Shown: positions 14,245 to 64,000 of the stretch, in pieces
How the letters are laid out: each line of letters starts with the position of its first letter
Position numbering within the stretch: the first letter of the stretch is position 1
Source of the DNA: Dicyema japonicum
Lineage: Eukaryota; Animalia; Dicyemida
Length of the DNA stretch: 64,000 nt
Direction of reading: 5' to 3'
NCBI GenBank assembly: GCA_011109175.1
Contig: RDEW01000023.1
Location: 407,225-471,224, forward strand
Notes under the pieces: generated by a model
What the model saw: only the letters and a program-made list of their open reading frames with translations
The model's database searches: none
Told to the model about the DNA's origin: nothing
Program-made: the position numbers and the translations under genes

Positions 14245-16152
14245 TTATTTTTTATAAATATTAGTATCCGAATATTTTATTTTTTCGAATACCCATTGTT
14301 GTGAATGATCCCCAGTACATTTATCCAAGATAACATTATTAAAGTAAGTGAGACACATTATTTTATTATCCAAACTATACTTCAATTGAAATGTGCTCTA
14401 CAAAATATTACGACAAATAACATTATCATAATTCCAAGGTCCCTTACCAAAATATTCATAATCATCTCTAATCAACCCACCATTTCTATAATAAATTCCC
14501 CTTTCAGAGACACCAATGTGACCCCGCATATCCAAACGGAAATACTGAATATTATTACAAACCAACCATATTACCAACTGGCGTGGTGGGACAACCCGAA
14601 AGAATCAATTTCCCATATAAATCAGAATTTCCTGATGACAAGCACATTTTTGAACTGATGGAGCGAATCTAACACTGTTAATAACAAAATACATTGCCCG
14701 AATAAACATTTTCGTGTGGATACGGATAAGTCTTAAGCATATCAAAAGCTACGTTCTTCATGAACCAACCAAATGACTTGCATTTTAACTGATTTTTGAT
14801 AGCTAGAGAACGTGACACGTCCACCGTGAATCCATCCAGTTCAGGATGCCGACGGTAAAAGTACTTTTTGTGTTCCTCGTCGAACCAAGCCTCTACAACC
14901 CGTTTATGATTCTGAAATTACCACACAGTTAACCAAATCAGAAAGTGGGACGTTCGATGTATATTTGTCCCCCTCGTAACTCGTTCAGGTCCCCTATAAA
15001 TATGACCAACACGTGAGCATGGCACCCACAAAACCTCGCCATGGCACATCCACGTCTAAATAATAAGACACGTTTACTTTAAAGGACAGTTCGTACTGCT
15101 CACCTCCCCATATGAGCAATCCATCGTCATAATACCCAATCTGTTTAAAAAATAGTCGATCAATAGCCAGTAATCCGCCAGCATGAGTAGGAGAGCTGTA
15201 CGGTTCGGTTAAAATACTTCCTTCTTTGCGAACAGCATTCATCTCCTTATAAAAGAATCCCCACTCAAAAATCCCAACTGGATTGGTATTGACTCCATAA
15301 ATAGCGGTGTATTCAAAAGTATCCCAAGAAATTCCATCAATAAAAGGCACAGCGATGGCTTTACGATTTTTCTTAATAACTGCAAGGAGGGGAGGCAGCC
15401 AGTTCACGTTGACTTCACAGTGAGCATCCAAGAATATCACAACATCCCAGAAGCTGCCTTAGCCCCCGTGGTTCTCGCAGAAATGAGCCCTTCGTTTTCT
15501 TCGTTTCTTATAATTTTCACCAAATTCCCATATTCCCGTGTTTTTTCAGCAAATTCTTTAACCAAGTTGGCTGGATAATCACATTTATCTTACTATCAAA
15601 GGTCCCATCGTCGACCAAAATGATCTCTTTTAAGAATTCAGCAGGACTCCTGTTGATTATTGAGTTTACTGTCCTGAAAACAACTGAAAGTGACTCAAAG
15701 TAGAAGACAAGAACAACAGAAGCGGTAGGTAAACTACTCGGGTAGCTCCAATAACGGCATTCCTTGTTTCTTGTGTCTAACACGGTCCTGTTGAGGGAGA
15801 TTATCTTGCTAATCCCATCCCTGTAGCCAAATGGCATCGAAGATATGTGATAGTTTACAGTTACAGGTTTTCCGTTGTCACCTAAGAATCAACACAATGA
15901 ACATTCCTGGGCCTGTTAATGGCTCAAGTTCTGTAGGTTCGTAGTTTCCAAGTTTTTTCTTGTTGTAGAATGGCACTTTTACGATCTCATTAGTTTTTAC
16001 AACCTCATTCGTTTTTCTCCAAGTTGAATGACTTTTGTGGTGGTAAAATTTTTCAAACCCATCAAAAATAGTGAATAACATGCAAAAAGGCATATTATCA
16101 AGAATATTATACGCTTACGAAAACTTAAAAAAAGAAAAGGCGAATAAAGCAT
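14245..16152 (-). CDS. GALNT7: Polypeptide N-acetylgalactosaminyltransferase, GALNT7-like, with several micro-introns
   Basis: Type II anchor [76 protein letters not shown], ricin-type QQW C-terminus; a few homopolymer frameshifts. Confidence 0.9.
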
Positions 16153-16230: not shown

Positions 16231-19200
16231 ACATGCAACGTGCGTTCGATTCGGTGGCGTTAAAACTCTCTCGAGTTGGCAAAAATGTTGAAAGGAAAAA
16301 AGGAGAAGGGTCACTTGCGTTACCTGATGGTATGAATGTAATTCTTGCCATATCCGAGAGCGTTGTGGCAGATGACCCAAAAGAATGGGCGAGGCAGGTA
16401 GTCCTGCAGGTACGTAGCAGGCTATCTCGAATGCCCTGGAATGGATGGCCATACTTGGCGGAGCTCTGCAGTGGCAGATTCAGTACTGCTATATCTGTGA
16501 GTGAACTCAAGAAGATGGCTGTAGGCAAAGAGGGTACTGGTCTAAAGGGGCGGGGACCAGGTGACCACAACTGTCAAAGAGAGCACGAGCACCAGAGCTG
16601 TGATACGTTGCAGCTCAAGCATGTTTATGAGGTCTTTGCGCGGAATCTCGCTGCAGCGGCAGATGTCCCACTTGAGGACCGTAGATTTACCCGCAAGATT
16701 CCCCAATGTAAGGTTAACGGTGAGTGTTAACTTGCATCAATAAGGCTGTGGCTTATGCGGTGGAGGCTAAGCCAGTAGGGTCATTGGGTGACATCTCCCT
16801 AGTGCTGTATGCAGCACAGATCACCTATGAGGAATTGACGGACAAGCCCAGACCACCCAGTAAATGGAGGGAGCAGATCTGTGCCAAGATTGCTTGGAGA
16901 CAGACTGAGCTGGAAGCACTGGAGGGGCACATAAGTAGTGTGGCGAGAGGGGTTAGAGGAAAAGCACCGGCTATAGTAAAGGGGCTAATTAGTAAACTCC
17001 GTGTTCCCAAATGGGACCTCAAAGAGTTGAGGAGGGCAAAGGTGGAGTTAGAGGGGGCAATAATGGTGTATAAGAGGAAACTCTATACACATGAAAGTCG
17101 GTGTAAGAGAAGGAGAGAAAATAATCTGTTTGAGTTTAATCGCAGATTGTTTTACCGTCGCCTACACGAAAATGGCCATAGTGTATGTTCCCAGCAGGAC
17201 GCGGAAATGCTTTCCACATGGGGTAGTATGTGGGAGGCTAAACCACGCAGAGGAAATGCGTGGAATGTCCCGTACAGCGCCGCTCCTTTCTTGGCGGAAT
17301 CTTGCGGAATTTTCGATTTTCGCAAGAAATTTGAGGCGGTAGTGAGACATCTCCCTGATTGGAAGACGACCGGGGTCGATAAAGTTTATAATTTCTTTAT
17401 CAAAAGATGCACTTCATTACACGAGTCTATGTGTCGTGTATTACAGAAAAGCATCACTAACCCGGAAACGATTCCTGATTGGGCATGCACAGGGACAACT
17501 TATTTGATCCCAAAGCTGGACAACCCCCAGTCTGCTGCAGATTATCGACCGATAACCTGCATGCCAACCCTGTATAAGCTGATGACCAAATTAGTGGCTA
17601 ATGAGGTCAGGAGCTTTGTAGACGCAAATGGGATTCTCTCCGAGAATCAGTTGGGAACTGTGCGAAATTGTCAGGGGGCAAAAGAGCAGGCTTTGATCAA
17701 CAAATGCCTTTCTGTGTCTCACGGAAACTCACTTTTGTCTATGTGGGTGGATGTGAAGAAGGCTTACGATTCAGTTGATCATTCTTACCTTGTCGAGTGC
17801 CTACACAGTCTGTGTATGCCTGTGTGGTTCATCAGCTTTGTAGTGGCTGTGATGAATAGGTGGAGTATTCATCTGAACTATAATAGGCACCGGATAGGCG
17901 AGGTAAAACTCAAGAGGGGGATCTTCAGGGGGATAGCATGTCTCCGCTACTCTTTGTTCTCTGTTTGGAGCCATTGAGTCGCCGCCTCAATGACCGGTTT
18001 GAGCAAATACCAGTTCATTGTGAAGGGGTCTGTTTCAGTACAAATCACCTTCTTTTTATCGATGACTTGAAGATGTATGCTCGAACAGCCGAGGAGCTCT
18101 ACTCCATGGGGGTCTGTGCCAGGGAATTCTTTGAGAGTATAGGGCTAGATTTGAATTATTCAAAGTCTGCGACTAACACGCAAGTATGTAGCGAGTTAGT
18201 AAGAGTCCTAGAGGAACACGAAGGATATAAGTATCTGGGTGTTACCGAATCTCCAAAGTCCCTTATAATGCCTGAGACAAAGCGACAAATTACTGAAGGC
18301 ATCCGTAAAAGAGCAGCGTTATTGTGTAAGACGTCTCTAAATGCAAGGAATTTGTTCCTAGCATTAAATGAGTATGCTGTCTCGCTGCTAAACTACTACA
18401 TAGGTGTTGTGGAGTTTGAGCCCAAAGAGTATGATGAGATGGATGTTATGATCCGTGGAGTACTCAGAGAGAACCATGTCCATGTGTTGGCAGCCAATAA
18501 GGAGAGACTATATTTACCCCGTGATAAATTCGGCCGTGGACTGTGTGGAGTAGTCCAACTAAGTGAGCGTATCCTAATGCGAATGCACGACACCCTGATA
18601 GCTGGGTCAAGTGTGTCTGCTAGGAAGCACGCCATAATAACGACCGAGAAAACACGGGCAACCCACCTAGGCACTATCAGACCTTTTTTGTCTGCTAAGT
18701 ATGGTGTTGATGATGGTGGGCTAGTAAATGTGAAGGCGTTGATCGAATTACAATATAATAATTTGATGGAAAAGATCAACTTAAAAAGCCTTCATAAGGT
18801 CCTCTTCAGAGCATTGGACAACCCACATGTCGACCTTAAGTCGTCGACAATATGGCTAAAATACGGTGACAACTCACCTCGATCGGAGGCGTTGTACACG
18901 TATATGCAAGACCGCAATATTTTTTGGGGTCGATCAACAAATACATGTCCCCACTGTAAGTCAAGGAGCATGTCGGTTGATCATTTAGCCACTCGATGTG
19001 GATCCATGCTCTGCCACGACTATGTGTGGAGGCACAACGAGGTAGTAAGGAGTCTTCATCTTCTACTATGCAATAAGTATGGTATTCGCCACACCAGAAA
19101 GTTGCGGACTCATAAGGTGCAATCTGTAGTAGAGAACACCAGGGTCCAAATTAAGGTAGACAGTGTTATCCGTACCTCGGTGCTAGTCAAGCACAATAAA

Positions 19201-19683
19201 CCGGACATTGTGGTACACGATAAGGAGTCTGGCCAAGTCCTTATCATAGAGGTTGGCATCACGTCTCAAGACCGTTTGCAGACTGTGGAGGTGGAGAAAA
19301 AAAGGAAGTATGACTTTCTTGCAAACGAGATGGGGCAGATGCTTGGTTGCAAGGTCCTCGTTATTCCTATAGTAATGACGTGGGAAGGAATTGCAACAAA
19401 GTACCACAAGGGTTATCTGAAGCAGTTGGGGGTAGATAGGAAGCTCCAGGCCTATCTACAGTCCACTGTGTTAAAGCGGACCCTAGAGAGCCTGACACTG
19501 GAGTATAGGAGGCAGAGCCCTGAGATGCCATATGGGCAGAGGGTTCAATTAGACAAGCGCTCTCGGAGTTGTTTCAGCAACCAGAATCGAACCTGCCTGA
19601 GGAGGCTGGCGAACAGGCAGGCGAGGAAGGTTGTTGATTAATAAATATATTAACTTTTTTTTTTGTTTATTAAATAAAGTGGG
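16231..19683 (+). mobile_element. R4/Dong-like non-LTR retrotransposon (family A), single RT-CCHC-RLE ORF, near intact
   Basis: YRPITC, ENQLG, DVKKAYDSV, QGDSMSP, FIDD, YKYLG, CPHC..H..C, RHNEVV, KPDI..IIEV; TSD ACCTATTTA(T)nAAA at 16212-16230 and 19684-19700. Confidence 0.93.
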
Positions 19684-21189: not shown

Positions 21190-21610
21190 TGGGGCTGAAA
21201 ATTCTGATTCTAGAGTGAAAAGATTTAGGCTAAATCAAATAGCCAAATCGTAAATTTTTAAAGATGATATTTCTTATATAACCAGAAATCAAACTAAATT
21301 GAGATTTTTTGTAAGGAAGTGGAAGAACTTAAGCTAAAATTTATCGAGGTTTTTATATTTTTTGAGTTTTAGCCTGAGCCCAATCTGAATCATTTTGGCC
21401 AGGGATCAGTTGTATTGAAAACTCCGAAGAAAATTTTGAATTAGAACAATTAAAGGCCGTCAACAATGAATTACTGGAATTGGAGGATTCGAGAAAAGAT
21501 GTATACACAAATATTGTGCAGGCAGCAGACAGGATGGAAGAAAAAACGTAAATTGAATTACGATGAATATGCATTTAAAACTGGCAGCATGGTTATATTA
21601 AGGATTTTAT
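21190..21610 (+). mobile_element. Internally deleted Gypsy-type-integrase (Ginger-like) element with a 24-nt intron
   Basis: KFIE|intron 21349-21372|PExNLNHFG(R)DQLY resembles the first half of an integrase H2C2 domain, joined directly to a post-catalytic coil ending FKTGSMVIL; second copy at 25707-25905. Confidence 0.55.
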
Positions 21611-21789: not shown

Positions 21790-22342
21790 AAAAATAGGCT
21801 TTATTGTTATATCAAAAATTGGATTACAATAAATCTATGTTGCAATTATGAGGGTGTAAAACTTAAACGATTGATTATTGGGAAATATAATAAACCTCGC
21901 TGTTTCAAAAATGTCGATTTTTAATCGAATTTTTATGTCTTCAGGACATCGAAAGTGATTTTAAAGAACGTCTTTCAAAACTAAACCTTTGTCAGGTTGT
22001 AATGCTGGTTTCAAAAAGTTGGAATGAAGTAACAGAAATTACAATCACAGATTGTTGGAAACAAATTGAAAAAATCGTGATCTCTTAAATATTGATGATC
22101 GCATAACTTATGAAATAATGACCGAAACTGATGATGAAGAAACCATTGAATGCGACACTTCTATCTATTATGGAGATATAGCTGAAAACGAGGACGTGAC
22201 AGAGAAACAAACTCTGGAAACTTTGAATACTCTGGAACAGAACATTTCCTGCATAACACCAAAGTCATTCAAAAAATTTTACGAATTCCGAATGACAGTA
22301 ATGAGAAAGATCCGAAATGGTTACAAAATTGAGGAAAAATAA
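21790..22342 (+). mobile_element. pogo/Tigger transposase relic
   Basis: CCN..G.KL..LIIGKYNKPRCFKNV and SWNEVTEITITDCW. Confidence 0.7.
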
Positions 22343-24899: not shown

Positions 24900-26060
24900 A
24901 GTTATGGAAAAACTTGTGCTCACAAAAATAAAGGAATTCCTGCCGGATATGCCCTTCCCACATGGCTTTAAAAATATATAAGCGGTCAATCATCGTTATA
25001 ATTAGGGAATTTTTGCCATAAAATGCCATTTTTTAAGAGAAGGGTCACATTGGTGTATAAATTTATTACTTTTTTTAAGTTTCAATTTAGGTCATTTAGA
25101 TGTGAAGTTATATCCACGAAAAATGCCAATTTGGAAATGTTAACAGTATTTCGGAAATATAAAGCATCATAATTCTTTTCCTCAAGAAAAAGTATGACAT
25201 CATCCCGTATATGAAATAGTCTCTTGAGCATGGATCCTCTGCTAAACCATCTCACATTAGAAAAATATGAGATCTCCATATTCGGCTTCAGTATCCATTA
25301 AAAATTGTTTGAAGTGCCGATGATTTAAGCCACGGGATAAAATAAAATTAACTGCATTAACAGCAGCATCCATTGTCTCGTGTAATTTGACTGATTTGGC
25401 AACTAGCACTTCTTGATAAATAATACAGTGGAATCTTGAACCAAATTGTGCTGAATTCCAAAATTTTCTATTTTTTATCGAAGTAATGAAATAATTTCCT
25501 TTTTGTTCTCAACCATAGAAGGAGCCCTATCTGTTGTAATTCCAACAAATTTCGAAAGTGGGAGATTTGATTCTGTCAAATGTTGCATTGAATGCCCGAA
25601 AACGTCGGTTTCCATCATTGGAATGACTCTGACAAATTTTTCAAAAAATTTGTTTCAGTTATTCTCGTACAAATACGGCAAGTTGAGAAGTATCTCTTCT
25701 GTCAGACGTAATTCAATGTACGCTTTTCTTCCATCCTGTCTGCTACCTGCACAATATTTGTGTATGCATCTTTTCTCGAATTCTCCAATTCCAGTAATTC
25801 ATTATTGACGGCCTTTAATTGTTCTAATTCAAAAGTTTCTTCGGAATTTTCAATACAACCGATCCCGGCCAAAATGATTCAGATTGTACTCAGGCTAAAA
25901 ATCTAATTATTATTATTAAGGCACTTTCACGAAAGCTATATAGTTTATAGCCTGTGCAACACTCAAAACAATATTTTGCGTTAATCTTTTCAAAATTTTA
26001 AAAGCGAGCTTAATTCGTTTAGATCGTTCCCCGTTTTGAACTTTTCGTTTCATTATACAA
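24900..26060 (-). mobile_element. hAT (Buster/GTF2IRD2-like) transposase relic
   Basis: MKRKV N-terminus, DTSQLAVFVR, ITTDRAPSM, HCIIYQE, VRWFSRG, LAFFVDITSHLNDLN. Confidence 0.8.
25707..25905 (-). mobile_element. Second copy of the Ginger-like derivative, embedded in the hAT relic
   Basis: Inverted match to 21365-21562; reads PEYNLNHFGRDRLY after a TTTTTAG acceptor. Confidence 0.65.
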
Positions 26061-27711: not shown

Positions 27712-28853
27712 ATGTTTGTAGTAACTGTGAATTTAATTTTAGCACACGAGTTTATTAGAATGGCCTGATGGGGAAAATAATATTTTTTACAAAAAAGATA
27801 TGCGTGATGCTGTAAAGCATCTATCAGGATGGGTGATGATAAATAACAACAATCACTGCAAGGATGTCCTTAAAAAATCATGTAGAGGTAAATCACAAAT
27901 TTTATTGAATTAGGTGTGATTCATTGCTCGAAAAATTGTATGGTAAAGGATAAACCATTAACACTCAGACCTCTGACTACAAATAGTAAACTTAAAGAAC
28001 AACTTAAAAGTAGATGTCCATCATGTGTGAATTTGATAGATTTCATATTTTAGGTAAAAGAAAAACACTTTACCATAAGAAATGCTGTGGTAATGAGGGC
28101 TATCCAGTAACACATTTTGGACATATAGAGGTTTTTTTTTTGTATTGATTGCACATAAATTAGAACAGGGAATTAATTTTAGATCTAAGGGTACACATGA
28201 TCATCCAAGACCTCCAAATCCTAAACCACCATTATGTGCTGTGATGAACTTACTTAAATATCATGTGGAATTTCCTGACGTTTCTTGCAAAGAGATCTCT
28301 TTACGTATCATGCTAATAATTAATTAAGTTAAGGGACCAGAAATTCATGAGGCATTTAAGGATTCGGCAGTTGTTAGTCGAAAAATTAAAGAAAATGGAG
28401 GTTTTCCTTGCGATCACTTTAGAAATTATAAAAGAACTTAGAACTCGTCAGAGCCTCCAAAATAGCAATCTTATATTTTCAACCGAATTTATAAACTGGC
28501 AAGAATACCCACTTTATCAACATCAATGTTATCCTGAAAGAAATTTAAATCATGATCCTACACTATATAAAAACAATTATCAGTGGATTAATTCGTCTGT
28601 GCCATATAATTTGACATTTAGGTCCTCAGCAACAGCAATACATGAAAACAATCCCTTATATTTCGGATATCATAAAGTTCATTCTTCGCAAACAGAATAT
28701 TTATACAGTGGAAATAATGCAAGGCCTCAAACAGATCAATGGTGTCCCGAAAATGTTATGACCTGTGAGGAAAGTCAAAATGCATTATCAAATTATTTGC
28801 AACATGGATATATTACGCGTAAAAATCCCCATAATTGTAGGAACAGATGTTAA
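27712..28853 (+). CDS. gcm: Divergent glial-cells-missing (GCM) transcription factor, six micro-introns
   Basis: Spliced: EWPDG..KHLSGWVMINNNNH..LKKSCRGVIHCSKNC..LRP..CPSC..KCCGNEGYPVTHF(W)..SKGTHDHPRP; introns include 27721-27742 and 28401-28422; one T missing in the TTT TGG codons. Confidence 0.9.
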
Positions 28854-44850: not shown

Positions 44851-45031
44851 TTATCCAAGAATCTGTTTCTAGTGAGAAATAAAATCATGTCAATTATGTC
44901 GACGGGAATCAATAGTTAGAATTAATGAATGCTCTTTATTAAAATAAAATATATATAACCAAATTTAATTAGTCATCAAATAAATTGAGTGCAATTCAAA
45001 TTTTAAATATCTAAGCAACGTAGAGTAAATA

Positions 45032-47102
45032 ATGCAAGTTGTATCAATTAAAAAGAATAATTATGAAAATTTTGAAGAAAATTTTCCACAAATTTTCACT
45101 CGTTCTGAAACGTATAATTTTAAGGAAAATTTAATAAATCGAAATATTTTGTTAGAAAATTTAGAAAATAAAACTGAAATCAATGCTAAAATTGCAATTT
45201 CTTGTTCAACTAAATTAAATTTTTACACTCAGAAAACAATCCGAAATGTCAGCAACTTTTTTCAAGAACACGGTTTTTCAAGAATGTTTTGGAATGAACA
45301 AGACGAAGCTCTAAAATTTAGCATTTACCGTCTCTCTTTAAGATTGAAAATATTAGAAAAAAGTAAAATAGTGCTCATTTTTCTAACAAAAGATTATTTC
45401 ACAAATTTATATTCTTTTTTGGAATCGAAATTGATTCTTTATAGAAAAAACAAAACTCTCATTTTGATTGAAACTGAAAATTTCAGCAAGGAAAATATAT
45501 TTTTCAAAAACTTAAAAAATATTTCTTCCTGTATTATCGACTTTTTACCAGAAAGCAAGAAAACAATATTTGAACTAACAGAAGAGGATTAAAAAGCTAA
45601 TTATGGAATATGAGATTCCAGGAGATTTTTCGTACAAATTACGTGACATTGAAGATGAAAAATCATTTAATACTAAAATTATTGAACTTTGGACCAATAA
45701 AGATGTTATAGAATGGATGACAACAATTAATATCTCAAATGATATAATTTCAACTTTTAAGAAAGAAATATTGACGGGAATTTACTAATTTCACTCACAG
45801 AGTCTGATCTTACTAATCATTTGGACATAAAACTAAATCAAACAAGGTTTAAAAATATGTTTGACAATATTGTAGAAAAAGAATTTTATGTTCTCGCGAG
45901 AGTTTGTTGAAATTAAAAAACCCAAATAAAAAAGAGACAGAAAACAGAGTTTTCAAGAATAGCTTTGTTTACATTATTTATGACAGTTCTGATGATGAAA
46001 TTTATAAGCAAATGACATCAATTTTAGAAGAATCAGGATACAATGTAAATTTTCTTATAATTCTTAAAAAGATAATATCATCACAAGACATCAAACAGTC
46101 AAGTTCAAATGTTGATGAAAAAATTACAAAATTTATTAATCAATCAGCGTTGATAGTTCTTATTTTGACAAACAACTTCATTGAAAGACAGGATTCCATA
46201 AATATAATTTGCTTTGCTATCGAAAAAAATAAAAAAATTGTCAGTGCAATTTGCGAAAATCATCTCAAAGGATTCCATAAAATTTTACTTGTTCTTTTAA
46301 GTTTAAAATGAAAATAAAATTTAGGCAAGACTATTTTAATTGATTTTACGTTTTATTTGATCAACATTTCACAAGAAAAACTTGTAAGAATTAAAAAACT
46401 ACTAAATTACATTGTAATTCGAAGAAAGGTTGAAAATTGGAGTGAAAATTACAAGGAGATAATAAATTTGAATCAGTATTTATTTGGTTTGTCAGATATT
46501 GATAAAATAGAAAACTGTGAAAATTCTCGAAAAAAGATTTTTGACGTTATTTTATTTTTTCATTGGGATTCTCGTTCAGAAGCAAATTTGATTGAAATTT
46601 TATTGCAGAAAAATAAAATTTCGTGTTGGAGTGAATTAAATTTTAATGTTGAAAATAAATTAAATCAAACCCAATTTCAGAACATTTATCAGTTTATTTT
46701 ATATTTAATTTAGTGAAAATTTTTTAATCCATATCGTTGCTTACAAAATAACATTGAATCTGCACTGATCAATTCCTCCACCGTGATATTTTTGATATCG
46801 TCGAATTATACTTGCGGACATAATTTTAAAAAAGATTTAAATTTGGCAGTTAAATTAAATAAACGGATTATTTTCGTATTAATTGAAGTTTGCATTTGGC
46901 CTCCATTATTTGCTACAAATATGGTTTGATTATTAAAAATTTTCAGATGAGAAAAATTATCAAAATTAATCTGACGGTTGATATGAGCAGCGATTCCATG
47001 TGTCAAATAAACCGTAATTTGCCCATCATTGAACATATTAAGCGAAGTGTAACAACAAAAAATTCTAAACTTAAATTTAATCGATTGGCAACCACAATAT
47101 AA
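45032..47102 (+). CDS. Multi-TIR protein, TIR-SAM-TIR-TIR, with micro-introns
   Basis: TIR1 IAIS..SKIVLIFLTKDYF..SFLE; SAM WTNKDVIEWM..F..(N)IDGNLLISLTESDL; TIR2 VYIIY..SALIVLILTNNF; TIR3 FDVILFFHWD..SSTVIFLISSNY..LNKRIIFVLIE..WPP; 2-3 single-base frameshifts. Confidence 0.75.
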
Positions 47103-47191: not shown

Positions 47192-49157
<1,966 letters not shown>

Positions 49158-49214: not shown

Positions 49215-51621
49215 CCCACTTTATTTAACAAACAATAAAAAATTAATATATTTAATAATCAACAACCTTCCTCGCCTGCCTGTTCGCCAGCATCCTCAGG
49301 CAGGTTCGATTCTGGTTGCTGAAACAACTCCGAGAGCGCTTGTCAATTTAACCCTCTGCCCATATGGCATCTCAGGGCTCTGCCTCCTATACTCCAGTGT
49401 CAGGCTCTCTAGGGTCCGCTTTAATACAGTGGACTGTAGATAGGCCTGGAGCTTCCTATTTACCCCCAACTGCTTCAGATAACCCTTGTGGTACTTTGTT
49501 GCAATTCCTTCTCACGTCATTACTATATGAATAACGAGGACCATGCAACCAAGCATCTGCCCCATCTCGTTTGCAAGAAAGTCATACTTCCTTTTTTTCT
49601 CCACCTCCACAGTCTGCAAACGGTCTTGAGACGTGATGCCAACCTCTATGATAAGGACTTGGCCAGACTCCTTATCGTGTACCACAATGTCCGGTTTATT
49701 GTGCTTGACTAGCACCGAGGTACGGATAACACTGTCTACCTTAATTTGGACCCTGGTGTTCTCTACTACAGATTGCACCTTATGAGTCCGCAACTTTCTG
49801 GTGTGGCGAATACCATACTTATTGCATAGTAGAAGATGAAGACTCCTTACTACCTCGTTGTGCCTCCACACATAGTCGTGGCAGAGCATGGATCCACATC
49901 GAGTGGCTAAATGATCAACCGACATGCTCCTTGACTTACAGTGGGGACATGTATTTGTTGATCGACCCCAAAAAATATTGCGGTCTTGCATATACGTGTA
50001 CAACGCCTCCGATCGAGGTGAGTTGTCACCGTATTTTAGCCATATTGTCGACGACTTAAGGTCGACATGTGGGTTGTCCAATGCTCTGAAGAGGACCTTA
50101 TGAAGGCTTTTTAAGTTGATCTTTTCCATCAAATTATTATATTGTAATTCGATCAACGCCTTCACATTTACTAGCCCACCATCATCAACACCATACTTAG
50201 CAGACAAAAAAGGTCTGATAGTGCCTAGGTGGGTTGCCCGTGTTTTCTCGGTCGTTATTATGGCGTGCTTCCTAGCAGACACACTTGACCCAGCTATCAG
50301 GGTGTCGTGCATTCGCATTAGGATACGCTCACTTAGTTGGACTACTCCACACAGTCCACGGCCGAATTTATCACGGGGTAAATATAGTCTCTCCTTATTG
50401 GCTGCCACACATGGACATGGTTCTCTCTGAGTACTCCACGGATCATAACATCCATCTCATCATACTCTTTGGGCTCAAACTCCACAACACCTATGTAGTA
50501 GTTTAGCAGCGAGACAGCATACTCATTTAATGCTAGGAACAAATTCCTTGCATTTAGAGACGTCTTACACAATAACGCTGCTCTTTTACGGATGCCTTCA
50601 GTAATTTGTCGCTTTGTCTCAGGCATTATAAGGGACTTTGGAGATTCGGTAACACCCAGATACTTATATCCTTCGTGTTCCTCTAGGACTCTTACTAACT
50701 CGCTACATACTTGCGTGTTAGTCGCAGACTTTGAATAATTCAAATCTAGCCCTATACTCTCAAAGAATTCCCTGGCACAGACCCCCATGGAGTAGAGCTC
50801 CTCGGCTGTTCGAGCATACATCTTCAAGTCATCGATAAAAAGAAGGTGATTTGTACTGAAACAGACCCCTTCACAATGAACTGGTATTTGCTCAAACCGG
50901 TCATTGAGGCGGCGACTCAATGGCTCCAAACAGAGAACAAAGAGTAGCGGAGACATGCTATCCCCCTGAAGGATCCCCTCTTGAGTTTTACCTCGCCTAT
51001 CCGGTGCCTATTATAGTTCAGATGAATACTCCACCTATTCATCACAGCCACTACAAAGCTGATGAACCACACAGGCATACACAGACTGTGTAGGCACTCG
51101 ACAAGGTAAGAATGATCAACTGAATCGTAAGCCTTCTTCACATCCACCCACATAGACAAAAGTGAGTTTCCGTGAGACACAGAAAGGCATTTGTTGATCA
51201 AAGCCTGCTCTTTTGCCCCTGACAATTTCGCACAGTACCCAACTGATTCTCGGAGAAAATCCCATTTGCTTCTACAAAGCTCCTGACCTCATTAGCCACC
51301 AATTTGGTCATCAGCTTATACAGGGTTGGCATGCAGGTTATCGGTCGATAATCTGCAGCAGACTGGGGTTGTCCAGCTTTGGGATCAAATAAGTTGTTCC
51401 TGTGCATGCCCAATCAGGAATCGTTTCCGGGTTAGTGATGCTTTTCTGTAATACACGACACATAGACTCGTGCAATGAAGTGCATCTTTTGATAAAGAAA
51501 TTATAAACTTTATCGACCCCGGTCGTTTCCAATCAGGGAGATGTCTCACTACCGCCTCAAATTTCTTGCGAAAATCGAAAATTCCGCAAGATTCCGCCAA
51601 GAAAGGAGCGGCGCTGTACGG
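49215..51621 (-). mobile_element. 5'-truncated copy of R4-like family A
   Basis: Near identical to 17270-19683; TSD TATTAATGTTTATAATT at 49191-49207 and 51622-51638. Confidence 0.95.
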
Positions 51622-52099
51622 TATTAATGTTTATAATTATTTTTATTAAAATTTGATTCTTCATCTAAATAAGTAAATTTAAGTAAGCTATTATAAAGCA
51701 AACACTGCAAATAAAGTGATGGGGGAAGTAATATGAAACAGTATTTAAGGTCAGAGGAAGTTTTGTCTGTGGTCTGCTCAAAAAATGGACCGGTTCTTAG
51801 GAAGTATAATTCCCTTATATCATTTGAGGGAACAGCAGGATCCATCCCAAATAATTGACACAGTAGTTGAAAGGGATCTTCCTACCTCTGCCTGACCAAA
51901 TCTTCCGAAAATTACATTATGAAAACTATTCCGCCAAGAATGAAGGTATGTCCGAGACGGTAGGACGTGTGATGAAAATGGAAGAGAGTGGACCAATTTT
52001 TTTACCTCTCTTCTGAAGTGGAAGCCTGTAATGTACAATTGGAAGATGGATTTGGTCGGCACAAGCAGATGTTCTCCATTGGGTTCCTTCCTTGAATTA

Positions 52100-55978: not shown

Positions 55979-57757
55979 ATGTTTCTTCGACGTCTAAGCA
56001 ATTCATTCCTTCATTCATACATGTGATTATTGAATTCTAATGATAAGGTCTTTTAGGAGATCACTATCGACATTTAAGTCGATTCCTATGGATGCTGATT
56101 ATCCAAACACAGTAGATGTTCCATTTCTGGCAAATTTAAATGAAATTGGAGAAACACAAATATATCAACTAAAATCCGGTATTACAGTGGGGACTCGTGA
56201 TATGAATCGTCCATTTTGTACAATTGGAGGTTCAATCTGGGTAACGTATTTTTAGTTGGAATATCTGCGGTAGTCGTAATGAAGTGGCTTACAAAAGCGG
56301 AATCATTCATTTTTTGGAAAAACTTGCATTTCACGTTGGTCTTATCAAATAATCGACAGTCTAGCAATAAATTTCCAAACAGAGACAATATTCTCTTTAC
56401 GCTAGAACAACATTGCAGCATATTTGACTGTCAGGCGACGAGGTATAGCAGATGAATTTCATAAATTAAGGGATATTATATTTTATGCAATTTCTTGTGA
56501 TAGACGTGGGCTTAGCACTATTACTAAACTTTTGGTGGATTCAGTTTTCTCCGAGAATTGAAGAAAGCGAAGTTGTATTTCATAATTGATTTGTAGATTG
56601 ACACTGCTCGAGAGACTGTGAAGGCCGATATTGACGGACATATTGACGTGAAGGGAATGGTTGAACAATATGTGATTGGTGATCTTTTCCATGCTGTATT
56701 ATCTTCTGTTCTAATTTAAGGCTGCTTATCCCCGGAATACACTTGGATTGCCGAATTTGTGTCCAGCGGAAAATTTTCCGTTAATTGATCGAACTGAGCT
56801 GGCCACATTCATTCATCACCACTACAAGCCAAAAAACATCGTCTTTTCTGGTATTTCGGTGAACCCTAATGAATTTGTGGACTGCATTGAAGAAGCTTAT
56901 GAATCTACTGTTCCTGGATTTATGGACTCTGTGTTATTTGACAGATTAGTGGATAGGTCACGTGCTCAGTACATCGGAGGCTTGTTCAAAGTTTTTTACT
57001 GTATATATAAGGTTGAAAAAGACATGAAGAAACTTTGTGTTGGCTCAATGCCACTTCCTGAACTTTGTCATGTTGCAATTGGTTTTGAGTCAGCATCTTA
57101 TTCAAATATGGCAGATTTTTACACTCCTTTTGTCCTTTGTTCCATATTAGGAGGTGGTGGTTCCTTTAGTGCTGGTGGGCCTGGAAAAGGTATGTTCACT
57201 CGCTTATATATGGATGTCATGAACAGGTTGTCGTTTTCCCTAATCCCAGATATCACTGGGTTTTCAATTCTACCGCCCACAACTTTGCATACAAGGATAC
57301 TGGATTTTGCATATATGCCAGTGCAGAACCAAAATATGTTTATTTCCTCTTTTTATAGTTTTTAGTTGTCCAGTCTGATTGAGGTTTTGATTCAGCAATT
57401 TAAGAATATTTTAAAACCCATTAATTCTGTTTTTGAGTATTTCTATTAGCCTAGGAAGAACTTTCTCGTGCAAAAACTCAACTAAAGTCAAAGATGCTGA
57501 TGAATTTGGAATCACAACCACTTTTTTTGGAGGACATGATTCGACAGATTATTGGGTTTGGTTACCAAAGGAATCATTTTGAGATATGTAATGCTATAGG
57601 TTTACTTAATTATGATTATTTAATAGATAATGTAACAGAAGAGGATATTCACAGAATCACGACGAAAATGCTAAAGACGAGACCTTCTGTGGCTGTTCTG
57701 GGAGATACTTCTCGGCTCCCGAAATATGAGAATATTTATTCTTCATTTAATTTGTAG
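55979..57757 (+). CDS. PMPCA: Mitochondrial-processing peptidase alpha subunit, 11 introns of 21-28 nt
   Basis: HFLEKLAF, NTLGLP, YIGG, LPELCHVAIGFE, GGGGSFSAGGPGKGMFTRLY, RAKTQLKS.MLMNLES. Confidence 0.95.
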
Positions 57758-61184: not shown

Positions 61185-62009
61185 CAGAACATTGGACAAC
61201 CAACGGTGACAACTCACCTCGATCGGAGGCGCTGTACACGTACATGCAAGACCGTATTATTTTTGGGGTCGATCAACAAATATATGTCCCCATTGTAAGT
61301 CAAGGAGCATGTCGGTTGATCATTTAGTCACTCGGTGCGGATCCATGCTCTGCCACGACTATGTGTGGAGGCATTACGAGGTAGTAAGGAGTCTTCATCT
61401 TCTATTATGCAATGAGTATGAAATTCTACACATCAAAAAGTTGCGACCTCATAAGGTACAATCTGTAGTGGAGAACACCAGGGTCAATATCAAGGTATAC
61501 AGTGTTATCCGTACCTCGGTGCTAGTCAAGCACAATAAACAGGACATTGTGGTACACGATAAGGAGTCTGGGCAAGTCCTTATCATAGAAGTTGTCATTA
61601 CGTCTCAAGACTGTTTGCAGACTGTGGAGGTGGAAAAAAAGGACTTGCTTTCAAACGAGATGGGGCAGATGCTTGGTTGCAAGGTCCATGTTATTCCAAT
61701 AGTAATGACGTGGGAAGGAATTGCAACAAAGTACCACATGGGTTATCTGAAACTGTTAAGGGTAGATAGGAAGCTCCAGGGCTATCTACAGTCAGTGTAT
61801 TAAAGCATACCCTAGAGAGCCTGACACTGGAGTATAGGAGGCAGAGCCCGGAGATGCCATATATGCAGAAGGCTCAATTGGACAAGGCGCTCTCGGAGTT
61901 GTTTCAGCAACCAGAATCGAACCTACCTGAGAAGGCTGGCGAGCAGGCAGGTGAGAAAAGTTGTTGATTATTAAATATTAACTTTTTTATTTTTGGTTAA
62001 TAAAGTGGG
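61185..62009 (+). mobile_element. Older 3' fragment of R4-like family A
   Basis: Matches 18806-19683 with substitutions; same AATAAAGTGGG terminus. Confidence 0.92.
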
Positions 62010-62378
62010 TTTAGGATCATAAAGTTAAATAAGTCAATTTTTAGATCAAAATTTCGACTTTATAAGTCAAAAAATCGTCCTGGTTATAATTTTCCTTTAG
62101 GCTTATAAAAATCGATATCTTTCCTAGTGATTGGATGCTTGTGTTTTTGCGCGTTCTAATAAACGAGATGGCTTCATCCGTTCCTTAGAAAATCCACACC
62201 ACATTGCAAACACAATTTTTTAAGTGGATTTTATGGATTTTTAATTAAACCCATAATATAAATGGTTCTCTTTATAATCCCTTATTTTAAACAGGTCCCA
62301 TCAAAAAGTTGCATGCTTTATTATTTAAATTATTTAGAATAAATTTATTTGTAAATATATCATAAAGGGTTATTTATT

Positions 62379-62640
62379 TAATAATTTGTCAAAATGCTTA
62401 ATAACTTTGTCATAAAGCTTAATAACTTTGTCAAATACTTAATAATTTTGTCAAAATGTTTAATAATTCGTCAAAATACTTAATAACTTTGTCAAAATGT
62501 TTAATAACTTTGTCAAAATATTTAATAACTTTGTCATAAAGTTTAATAACTTTGTCAAAATACTTAATAAATTTGTCAAAATGTTTAATAATTTGTCAAA
62601 ATACTTAATAATTTTGTAAAAATGTTTAATAACTTTGTAA
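62379..62640 (+). repeat. Tandem ~21-bp repeat TTAATAACTTTGTCAAAAT(G/A)(T/C), about 12 units
   Basis: Direct reading; inverted counterpart at 63900-64000. Confidence 0.92.
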
Positions 62641-62752
62641 AGATTATTATTTATATTTTTGAGATTATTATTTATATTTTGGGATTATTATTTATATTTT
62701 TGGGATCATTATTTATATTTATTGGATCATTATTTATATTTATTGGATTATT
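62641..62752 (+). repeat. Second tandem repeat GAT(T/C)ATTATTTATATTTT, about 5 units, upstream of the transposase
   Basis: Direct reading; followed by CTATAAATA about 30 bp before the ATG. Confidence 0.85.
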
Positions 62753-63899
62753 AAGTTCCTATAAATACAAATTTTAGCGCAAATTGAATTAAATGAATAG
62801 TTACAAAAACAAAAATACTACTCTATCCGAAGATAACCGAACACTTATTATAAATAAACATGAAGCAGGGTTGGCTTATTCAAAAATAAGCGAAGACATC
62901 TGTATTAACTATCAGACAGTTGTTTCTATCGTCAAAATCATACAAAAATACAGGAAGTTTTGCTTCAACAAAAAATAATTGTGGACGAAAAAAAAACTTA
63001 ATTCATCGGATATCTTATTTTTGACTAAAAAAATTGAAGAAGATGCTTCATTTTACTCTGAAGAATTTAAAAAATTCTTTATTTGATGTGCAAAGAAAAA
63101 TGTCTCTTTATCGACAATAAATAGGACGCTAGATACATTTGGATATAGTTTTAAAAAGATTCAATTTGTACCTATGGCGAGAAAATTCTACAATAAATAT
63201 GGAAGAAAGATATAGATTTGCCAGAAAAATAATTGAAATTGATAATCAACGACTTATTTTTATAGACGAAATGGGAGTCAATTGTTCGATGAGATCCAAA
63301 TTTGGAAGATCTATAAAAGGAGTTACTCCCGAAAAAATGTATTAGAAACATAAGAGAGAAAAATTTTTCTATTGTGCTGCTATTTCTGTGGACGGCCTTT
63401 TACATTACGAAATCAATTCCTCCCCTTATCGCGCAGAGAGACGTTCATTGATTTTGTAATGCAGCTTAATTATAAGCTTGAACATGCAGGGAAAAAAAGT
63501 ATGGTTATATATTATATTTAAGACATGGTATTGATATGTGACAATGCATCAATTTACAAGAGCGAGCAATTAAAAAATGTTGTATTCGGAACTGGTATCC
63601 AATTAATTTTTAACGTGTATAGGGTATGAATTGTATTTTTTGCCTCCTTATACTCCTCAACTCAATCCAATTGAAGAGTTTTTTTCTGTTTGGAAAAATA
63701 ACATCAAAAAGAAAAATTGTAGGAACTCTGAGGAATTAATAAACGCAATCCACAACATCGGAGAAATTCCATCAGATGTGTGCAATAATTTGTATAGCCA
63801 CATGCGGAGCTATTTAGTTAAAGCATTGGCTTATGAAGAATTTTAATTTATAGTTGTTTTTTCAATTAATTATAAAATTGGTTTCTTTTAATTTGACCC

Positions 63900-64000
63900 T
63901 TGACAAAGTTATTAAACATTTTGACAAAGTTATTAAATTTTGACAAATTTATTAAGTATTTTGACAATTATTAAAATTTTGACAAATATTAAATTTTTGA
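63900..64000 (-). repeat. Inverted copy of the 21-bp array
   Basis: TTGACAAAGTTATTAAA units. Confidence 0.9.

What the first reader, a model, noticed from the sequence alone, without database searches (positions are those of the whole stretch)
63290..63680. DD34E transposase whose catalytic core only assembles after splicing two micro-introns
Seen: intron 63499-63522 (24 nt, in-frame TAA) and intron 63595-63622 (28 nt). Removing the second gives D-NASIYK..LNPI-E with exactly 34 intervening residues. With the Ginger-like case, two unrelated DNA transposons have host-sized introns. Inference: long residence under the same intron-shrinking process, a possible splicing-based control of transposition, and a barrier to transfer into hosts that cannot splice such short introns.
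Basis: partly seen in the sequence, partly recalled or inferred. Interest (0 to 1): 0.7.

Follow-up and report, generated by a model that had tools for sequence, protein, structure and literature searches.

The report
Tc1 transposase with host-sized micro-introns
A jumping gene in the genome of what is likely a parasitic animal has its enzyme core interrupted by two 24- and 28-base stretches that look like the host's own tiny introns and are likely spliced out; introns in such genes are known, and these two possibly arose in place by short duplications.

Summary
Observation confirmed. 63499-63522 (24 nt, GT-AG, in-frame TAA) and 63595-63622 (28 nt, GT-AG) interrupt an IS630/Tc1 DD34E transposase flanked by long repeat-built inverted ends. 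A spliced alignment to relatives picks exactly these two. Both fall in the 21-28 nt range of 10 predicted introns in a neighbouring host gene, and related copies keep them. Splicing is inferred; it was not tested on RNA. The '34 residues' fixes the length removed, not its place: homology pins intron 1 (rank 1 of 211) but not intron 2. 'Long residence under intron shrinking' is not supported: relatives read through both sites, and each intron weakly echoes the coding sequence after it (P about 0.002-0.05, post hoc), which hints at birth at short size by tandem duplication. Introns in Tc1, Tc3, Ginger and Paramecium Anchois transposases are in print. The Ginger-like case was not located. Verdict: new variant of a known kind, interest 0.4.

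The parts
62377..62638 (.). Left inverted-end array, 21-nt unit, 12.7 copies; true left end and target duplication not fixed
62642..62753 (.). Second AT-rich 21-nt array upstream of the start codon, not seen mirrored at the right end within the window
62793..63498 (+). Predicted exon 1: N-terminal HTH, first catalytic D at 63265; carries 8 frameshifts in this copy
   Evidence: Pfam HTH_SB E 7.5e-9, below its curated cut-off; spliced alignment
63499..63522 (+). Predicted intron 1, 24 nt, phase 1, GTA..AAG, in-frame TAA, 83% AT
63523..63594 (+). Predicted exon 2 (72 nt) with second catalytic D at 63540
63595..63622 (+). Predicted intron 2, 28 nt, phase 1, GTA..TAG, branch-like TAAC 12 nt before its end, 75% AT
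63623..63846 (+). Predicted exon 3: LPPY..LNPIE motif, catalytic E at 63673, stop at 63844; no frameshift
   Evidence: Pfam DDE_3 E 2.6e-8, above cut-off
63900..64000 (.). Right inverted-end array (5.2 copies seen), cut by the window end
56040..57757 (+). Host control gene, mitochondrial processing peptidase alpha, with 10 predicted introns of 21-28 nt and 2 frameshifts (not part of the element)

Best explanation
This is a copy of a multi-copy IS630/Tc1 DD34E transposon whose transposase gene is interrupted by two GT-AG segments of 24 and 28 nt that are likely spliceosomal introns removed by the host's short-intron spliceosome. Shown: the element anatomy, the two insertions relative to relatives, their ends, size and composition, and their presence in other copies. 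Inferred: the host is an animal with sub-30-nt introns (a dicyemid or a myxobolid myxozoan are the two such lineages in print); the introns were gained in this lineage of the element; open-frame copies make a roughly 330-residue transposase only after both are spliced. Predicted: keeping intron 1 stops translation just before the second D, and keeping intron 2 shifts the frame and stops before the E, so unspliced RNA would give a DNA-binding protein without a catalytic triad or be degraded. This copy, as assembled, cannot encode the enzyme; its eight frameshifts are decay, assembly error, or both.
For: The spliced alignment to a profile of 47 relatives returns exactly these two introns at all three penalties tried, although the stretch holds 52 GT..AG candidates of 18-40 nt. 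Intron 1's cut ranks 1 of 211 options; intron 2's is the only GT..AG one of 103; joint chance about 8e-4. The host gene has 10 of 10 predicted introns at 21-28 nt with GTA/GTT donors and 77% AT; the two segments are 83% and 75% AT against 66% in the exons. 65 of 72 relatives have a contiguous D34E (1 had 35, 6 were not scored). 38 of 39 related loci show no GT-AG intron in the aligned core (6 aligned too briefly to cover site 1). Run X1 lays 1227 contigs and X2 227, with no dip in depth over either segment, and none of the 7 joints skips them; of 25 listed pieces, 1 bridges intron 1 and 3 bridge intron 2 with 31 or more letters each side, and all 4 keep the segment at about 87-96% identity. 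All 8 frameshifts have a compensating indel within 9 nt in other copies. PMC13644364 (parts 1-2 of 3 read) reports medians of 22-27 bp and a donor reduced to GTa in myxobolids and Dicyema.
Against: Homology does not place intron 2: the GIQLIF read inside it scores 10.3 bits against 9.9 for the exon's GYELYF, and 28 of 103 removals are within 3 bits. 8 of the 10 host donors are GTT, while both element donors are GTA. No single copy free of frameshifts was seen: contigs are short, and 42 indel rows, 115 substitution rows and 1449 pieces were not shown, so a minority of copies without the segments is not excluded. The host introns are themselves predictions from homology. The relatives are distant (at most 46%), and their contigs may include transcripts, in which introns would already be gone.
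Confidence: 0.78

Rival explanations
1. The two segments are decayed short duplications or insertions in a non-autonomous founder that was amplified in trans by an intronless relative. The GT..AG ends are chance and the family makes no transposase.
For: Both segments echo the downstream coding sequence. Intron 2's place is not fixed by homology. This copy has 8 frameshifts, and several contigs show internal deletions (table 5).
Against: Two of two insertions have GT..AG ends (about 8e-4) and sizes inside the host's 21-28 nt range. Intron 1's GT..AG cut is the best of 211. Apart from the indels, the reading has no stop over 329 residues and keeps all three catalytic residues. Copies about 10% diverged keep the segments.
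Confidence: 0.14
2. One reading: the introns are real, but they are old, once-longer introns that shrank during long vertical residence together with the host's introns. This differs from the best reading only in origin; about 0.2 of the intron case.
For: Sizes and composition match the host's. The element has a long end branch (0.75) and no relative above 46%, which leaves time for gain and shrinkage.
Against: No relative with an intron of any size at either site was found. An echo of adjacent coding sequence at the present length would not be expected of a long intron eroded to 24-28 nt. Most laid copies are 95-100% alike (1016 of 1227 in X1), so the visible burst is young.
Confidence: 0.16
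3. Intron 1 is real, but the second interruption has other boundaries or is bypassed another way (non-canonical ends, or a ribosomal shift), so that GIQLIF is the coding sequence.
For: GIQLIF matches the nearest motif GHQLIF at 5 of 6 residues and scores slightly above the exon version.
Against: The removals that keep GIQLIF have ends such as AA..TT or TT..TT. 56 of 67 relatives have H or F after the G, which Y fits better than I. The GT..AG version has a branch-like TAAC at -12.
Confidence: 0.05

Closest known systems
Tc1 and Tc3 of C. elegans (IS630-Tc1-mariner, DD34E)
   Same: [quoted passage not shown] Splicing-linked control of a Tc1 element is therefore in print.
   Different: One intron each against two here; both introns here lie in the catalytic core, next to the second D and between D and E, and are under 30 nt. 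The Tc1 intron's size (about 40 nt) is recalled, not checked.
Anchois elements of Paramecium tetraurelia (IS630/Tc1)
   Same: [quoted passage not shown]
   Different: Ciliate host, short (about 22 nt) inverted repeats, extra ORFs. The intron's size and position were not seen in the passages read.
Ginger1 DNA transposons
   Same: Transposase genes interrupted by 1 to 4 mostly GT-AG introns (PMC2836005, passages).
   Different: Integrase-like enzyme, unrelated superfamily; not reported as micro-introns in the passages read.
Unnamed DD34E clade P0013, P0014, P0016, P0018, P0020 (public contigs)
   Same: Nearest relatives, 41-45% identity, same motifs, grouped with the window protein at SH-aLRT 94 in a quick tree.
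   Different: Contiguous ORFs of 331-336 residues without either insertion; hosts unknown. Named relatives are more distant and microsporidian (P0006, P0063).
Intron gain by tandem duplication of coding sequence (Drosophila)
   Same: New introns from duplicated exon sequence (PMC2891723, abstract and section 10).
   Different: That model needs an AG/GY proto-splice site; neither junction here has one today (AA|AC and TG|GG in the sequence), and the DNA-level likeness is not significant.

Membership tests
IS630-Tc1-mariner, DD34E type | D, D, E triad with 34 residues between the second D and the E | tested here: met
   Met after removing 28 nt; 65 of 72 relatives share it
IS630-Tc1-mariner, DD34E type | DDE_3 catalytic domain and N-terminal HTH | tested here: met
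   DDE_3 34.3 bits (cut-off 28.6); HTH_SB E 7.5e-9, 35.7 bits, below its cut-off of 43, on a 61-residue piece
IS630-Tc1-mariner, DD34E type | Terminal inverted repeats | tested here: met
   21-nt unit arrays inverted at both sides; right end cut by the window
IS630-Tc1-mariner, DD34E type | TA target-site duplication | not testable with these tools
   Right end lies beyond 64000; no genome held
IS630-Tc1-mariner, DD34E type | Multiple dispersed copies | tested here: met
   1227 contigs at graded identity in X1, 227 in X2; no second copy in the window; copy number not measured
U2 spliceosomal micro-intron of host type | GT..AG ends, 21-28 nt, AT-rich | tested here: met
U2 spliceosomal micro-intron of host type | Removal restores the homologous reading frame at those exact ends | tested here: inconclusive
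   Met for intron 1 (rank 1 of 211); for intron 2 compatible but not unique (28 of 103 within 3 bits)
U2 spliceosomal micro-intron of host type | Absent from mature mRNA | not testable with these tools
Intron gained by tandem duplication | Intron resembles the adjacent exon sequence | tested here: inconclusive
   Protein-level echo P 0.001-0.05 over three profiles and two nulls; 9 of 10 host introns score 0; DNA-level P 0.13-0.63
Intron gained by tandem duplication | AG/GY proto-splice site at the exon junction | tested here: not met
   Junctions read AA|AC and TG|GG in the window; later change is possible but not shown

The most novel reading that the evidence does not exclude
An intronless Tc1-type element entered a micro-intron animal and twice gained an intron in its catalytic core by 24-28 nt tandem duplication of its own coding sequence. 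Such duplications would be lethal frameshifts or insertions in most hosts but can be spliced out here. Micro-intron genomes would then gain introns from ordinary tiny duplications, and the element would be locked into hosts able to splice sub-30-nt introns, with unspliced RNA giving a catalytically dead DNA-binding product that damps transposition.
Probability: 0.28. Interest if true: 0.68.

Novelty: new variant of a known kind. Interest (0 to 1): 0.4.

Why it matters
Introns in Tc1-family transposases are known, so the bare finding is a modest addition: two predicted sub-30-nt introns inside the catalytic core in an animal. It would matter more if the introns arose at their present size. How introns are gained is an open question (PMC3488318, passages), and how sub-30-nt animal introns are recognised is stated as open in PMC13644364. 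A multi-copy family gives many alleles of the same two introns with intronless relatives as outgroup, which makes intron birth and splice-site constraint testable from one genome. It also yields a simple prediction: the element should fail in hosts whose spliceosome cannot handle such short introns.

Tried and rejected
No RNA holder listed among 6 runs; this blank is no evidence on expression or splicing. Laying the host control gene on X1, X2, X5, X6 to tell RNA from DNA failed: 1 partly fitting, diverged contig in X1 and none in the other three. A filter or a species difference could each explain this, so the runs' kind, and whether they come from the window's own species, stay open. X3 and X4 were never laid (4 of 6 runs used). 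No whole genome was held, so copies could not be read singly and the target duplication could not be tested. No close relative, spliced or intronless, was found: 6 hits among 16 candidates, 123 among 4242, and the best 150 of 740 representatives, at most 54% over the whole exon and 64% over part of it (93 of 150 D34E, 39 without the strict motif, 13 other spacing, 5 too short). Using '34 residues' as proof of intron 2's place was rejected. DNA-level duplication test: not significant. Ginger-like element: no integrase family among 79, 74 and 59 pieces scanned, and a motif scan gave nothing convincing. The host lineage could not be fixed from the best 120 of 3508 peptidase hits: the named ones are animals at about 36-49% identity, none named as dicyemid or myxozoan. 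The careful tree did not finish; the quick one was used, with 93 of 123 proteins kept by length. One search timed out and was rerun on the core only. Paper searches listed no description of a micro-intron Tc1 transposase in dicyemids or myxozoans; only listings were seen for most papers and the library lacks subscription journals. The Blepharisma preprint (passages) had nothing on transposase introns. Earlier scan findings: none relevant.

Full report
Observation. The second catalytic D (63540) and the E (63673) are 130 nt apart, so removing 28 nt leaves 34 codons. The first D lies at 63265, upstream of the stated range. Pfam finds DDE_3 on the last exon (E 2.6e-8, above cut-off) and a Sleeping-Beauty-type HTH at the start (E 7.5e-9, below cut-off). 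The gene lies between inverted arrays of a 21-nt unit, 62377-62638 and 63900-64000, the right one cut by the window end. It is an IS630/Tc1 DD34E element; the TA target duplication could not be tested.

Are the segments more than chance? A spliced alignment against a profile of 47 full-length relatives, free to use any GT..AG pair of 15-90 nt, returned these two introns and no others at three penalties; 52 GT..AG candidates of 18-40 nt exist in that stretch. Scanning removals without regard to ends, the GT..AG cut of intron 1 ranked 1 of 211 (27.8 bits; 7.9 with nothing removed). For intron 2 the score surface is flat: the GT..AG cut is tied at 14-18 of 103, about 0.7 bit below the best, and 28 of 103 lie within 3 bits, but it is the only GT..AG placement. 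So '34 residues' proves the length of the insertion, not its place. With a base rate of 14 in 8408 for GT..AG at 21-28 nt, the chance that both insertions offer such ends among their near-best placements is about 8e-4 (rough and post hoc).

Host context. The same method on the mitochondrial processing peptidase alpha gene at 56040-57757 gave 10 introns of 21-28 nt, donors GTT (8) or GTA (2), 77% AT inside. The element's segments are 83% and 75% AT against 66% in its exons; the second has TAAC 12 nt before its end. The named peptidase hits are animal. PMC13644364 (parts 1-2 of 3 read) finds such short introns, with a donor reduced to GTa, only in myxobolid myxozoans and Dicyema among 51 animals, so the host is likely one of these; I could not tell which. 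The host gene also shows 2 frameshifts, which points to indel errors in this assembly.

Other copies. Four of six listed runs were laid on 62760-63895 at 80% likeness. X1 gave 1227 contigs (438 at 99% or more, 578 at 95-99%, 167 at 90-95%, 44 below), X2 227, X5 5, X6 3. Summed depth in X1 does not dip over the segments (88,000 and 136,000 against 63,000-132,000 in the neighbouring bins). None of the 7 joints skips either one. Of 25 listed pieces, 1 bridges intron 1 and 3 bridge intron 2 with 31 or more letters on each side, and all keep the segment. 42 indel rows, 115 substitution rows and 1449 pieces were not shown, so a minority without the segments is not excluded. Whether these runs are from the window's own species is not settled (see Tried and rejected).

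This copy has 8 frameshifts between 62937 and 63436, three of them between the first and second D. Each has a compensating indel within 9 nt in other copies, carried by 10-86% of X1 depth at the site. With X at those places the reading is 329 residues without a stop. Open frames therefore exist at each site in the family, but no single intact copy was seen. The title's claim holds for the family by inference, not for this sequence as written.

Relatives. 65 of 72 proteins have a contiguous D34E (1 had 35, 6 not scored). 38 of 39 related loci show no GT-AG intron in the aligned core; 6 aligned too briefly to cover site 1, and L007 gave one 29-nt call elsewhere in a poorly aligned stretch. The nearest relatives are at 41-45% identity, and a search of 1.84 billion representatives found none closer than 54% over the last exon. 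Some of these contigs could be transcripts. The simplest reading is gain of both introns in this lineage; nothing points to longer ancestral introns.

An unexpected echo. Read on in the upstream frame, intron 2 begins GIQLIF, close to the relatives' GHQLIF and scoring 10.3 bits against 9.9 for the exon's GYELYF. Intron 1 begins SMVI, where the exon has NMVL. Against random introns of host composition or shuffles of the same intron, the echo has P 0.011/0.004 (intron 2) and 0.014/0.041 (intron 1) on the wide profile, 0.012/0.012 and 0.007/0.016 on the five nearest relatives, and 0.002/0.001 and 0.025/0.051 on the 31-member clade. Nine of 10 host introns score zero on the same statistic and the tenth has P 0.26. 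Against this: the test was designed after seeing the pattern, DNA-level likeness is not significant (P 0.13-0.63), and neither junction has the AG/GY proto-splice site that the duplication model uses (PMC2891723, abstract and section 10). I put birth by tandem duplication at about 0.35 given true introns.

Mechanism. Shown: anatomy, insertions, ends, family-wide presence. Inferred: open-frame copies are transcribed, the host spliceosome removes both introns, and the protein cuts and pastes through the inverted ends. Predicted from the sequence: retention of intron 1 stops translation just before the second D; retention of intron 2 shifts the frame and stops before the E. Either product would keep the DNA-binding part and lack the triad, and could act as a repressor, as for the Drosophila P element (recalled, no call), or be removed by nonsense-mediated decay; an in-frame stop in a 3n intron fits the bias described in PMC3464196 (passage). 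None of this regulation was tested.

Comparison and verdict. Tc1 and Tc3 each gained a small intron, and Tc1's is rarely spliced (PMC6004069, passages). Paramecium Anchois has a potential intron in its IS630/Tc1 transposase ORF (PMC3464196; supplement files 1-7 were unreadable scans, 14-16 were not searched, and the intron's size was not seen). Ginger1 transposases have 1-4 introns (PMC2836005, passages). Searches listed no micro-intron Tc1 from dicyemids or myxozoans, within the limits of that library. The Ginger-like companion case was not located. The finding is real and is a new variant of a known kind. Confidence in true introns is 0.78, interest 0.4; if both introns were born short by duplication (0.28 overall), interest would be about 0.68.

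Noticed in passing
Either a filter dropped the contigs, or the runs are from a related species that shares nearly identical mobile elements, or X1 holds a second related organism.
   Followed up: partly
window 56267 and 56547: Two frameshifts in an essential host gene, and apparently one in the glycosyltransferase gene near 15450 (seen by eye), suggest indel errors in the assembly; frameshifts elsewhere in the window should be read with care.
   Followed up: partly
window 45029-47099 (+): AT-rich stretch (29-31% GC bins) with at least two TIR_2 hits (E 1.3e-6 and 4.4e-5): a multi-TIR gene in a reduced animal genome.
   Followed up: no
window 27743-28324 (+): GCM-motif domain in three pieces (E 3.1e-13, 6.5e-5, 0.0036), broken by frame changes; host transcription factor or a mobile-element relic not decided.
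   Followed up: no
window 16724-19641 (+) and 49512-51630 (-): Two near-identical copies of a non-LTR retrotransposon with a C-terminal nuclease-like part, plus a fragment at 61210-61803 (family label from recall, not tested).
   Followed up: no
window 21361-21544 and 25724-25906; 21894-22085: An inverted pair at 93% identity that reads like a hAT-type transposase fragment (label recalled), and a weak DDE_1 pogo-like hit (E 0.0099).
   Followed up: no
window 47300-48900 (-) and 14400-16150 (-): Aldehyde dehydrogenase and glycosyltransferase family 2 genes in many short pieces, likely further micro-intron genes that would enlarge the host intron sample.
   Followed up: no
L007:781-809 and its ends: A distant relative has one 29-nt GT-AG call at another position (poorly aligned stretch) and ends built of short repeated units in inverted orientation, like the window element.
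   Followed up: no
P0006, P0063, P0083: The only species-named transposase relatives come from microsporidia (Dictyocoela muelleri, Cucumispora dikerogammari); they are distant, and no donor can be inferred.
   Followed up: no
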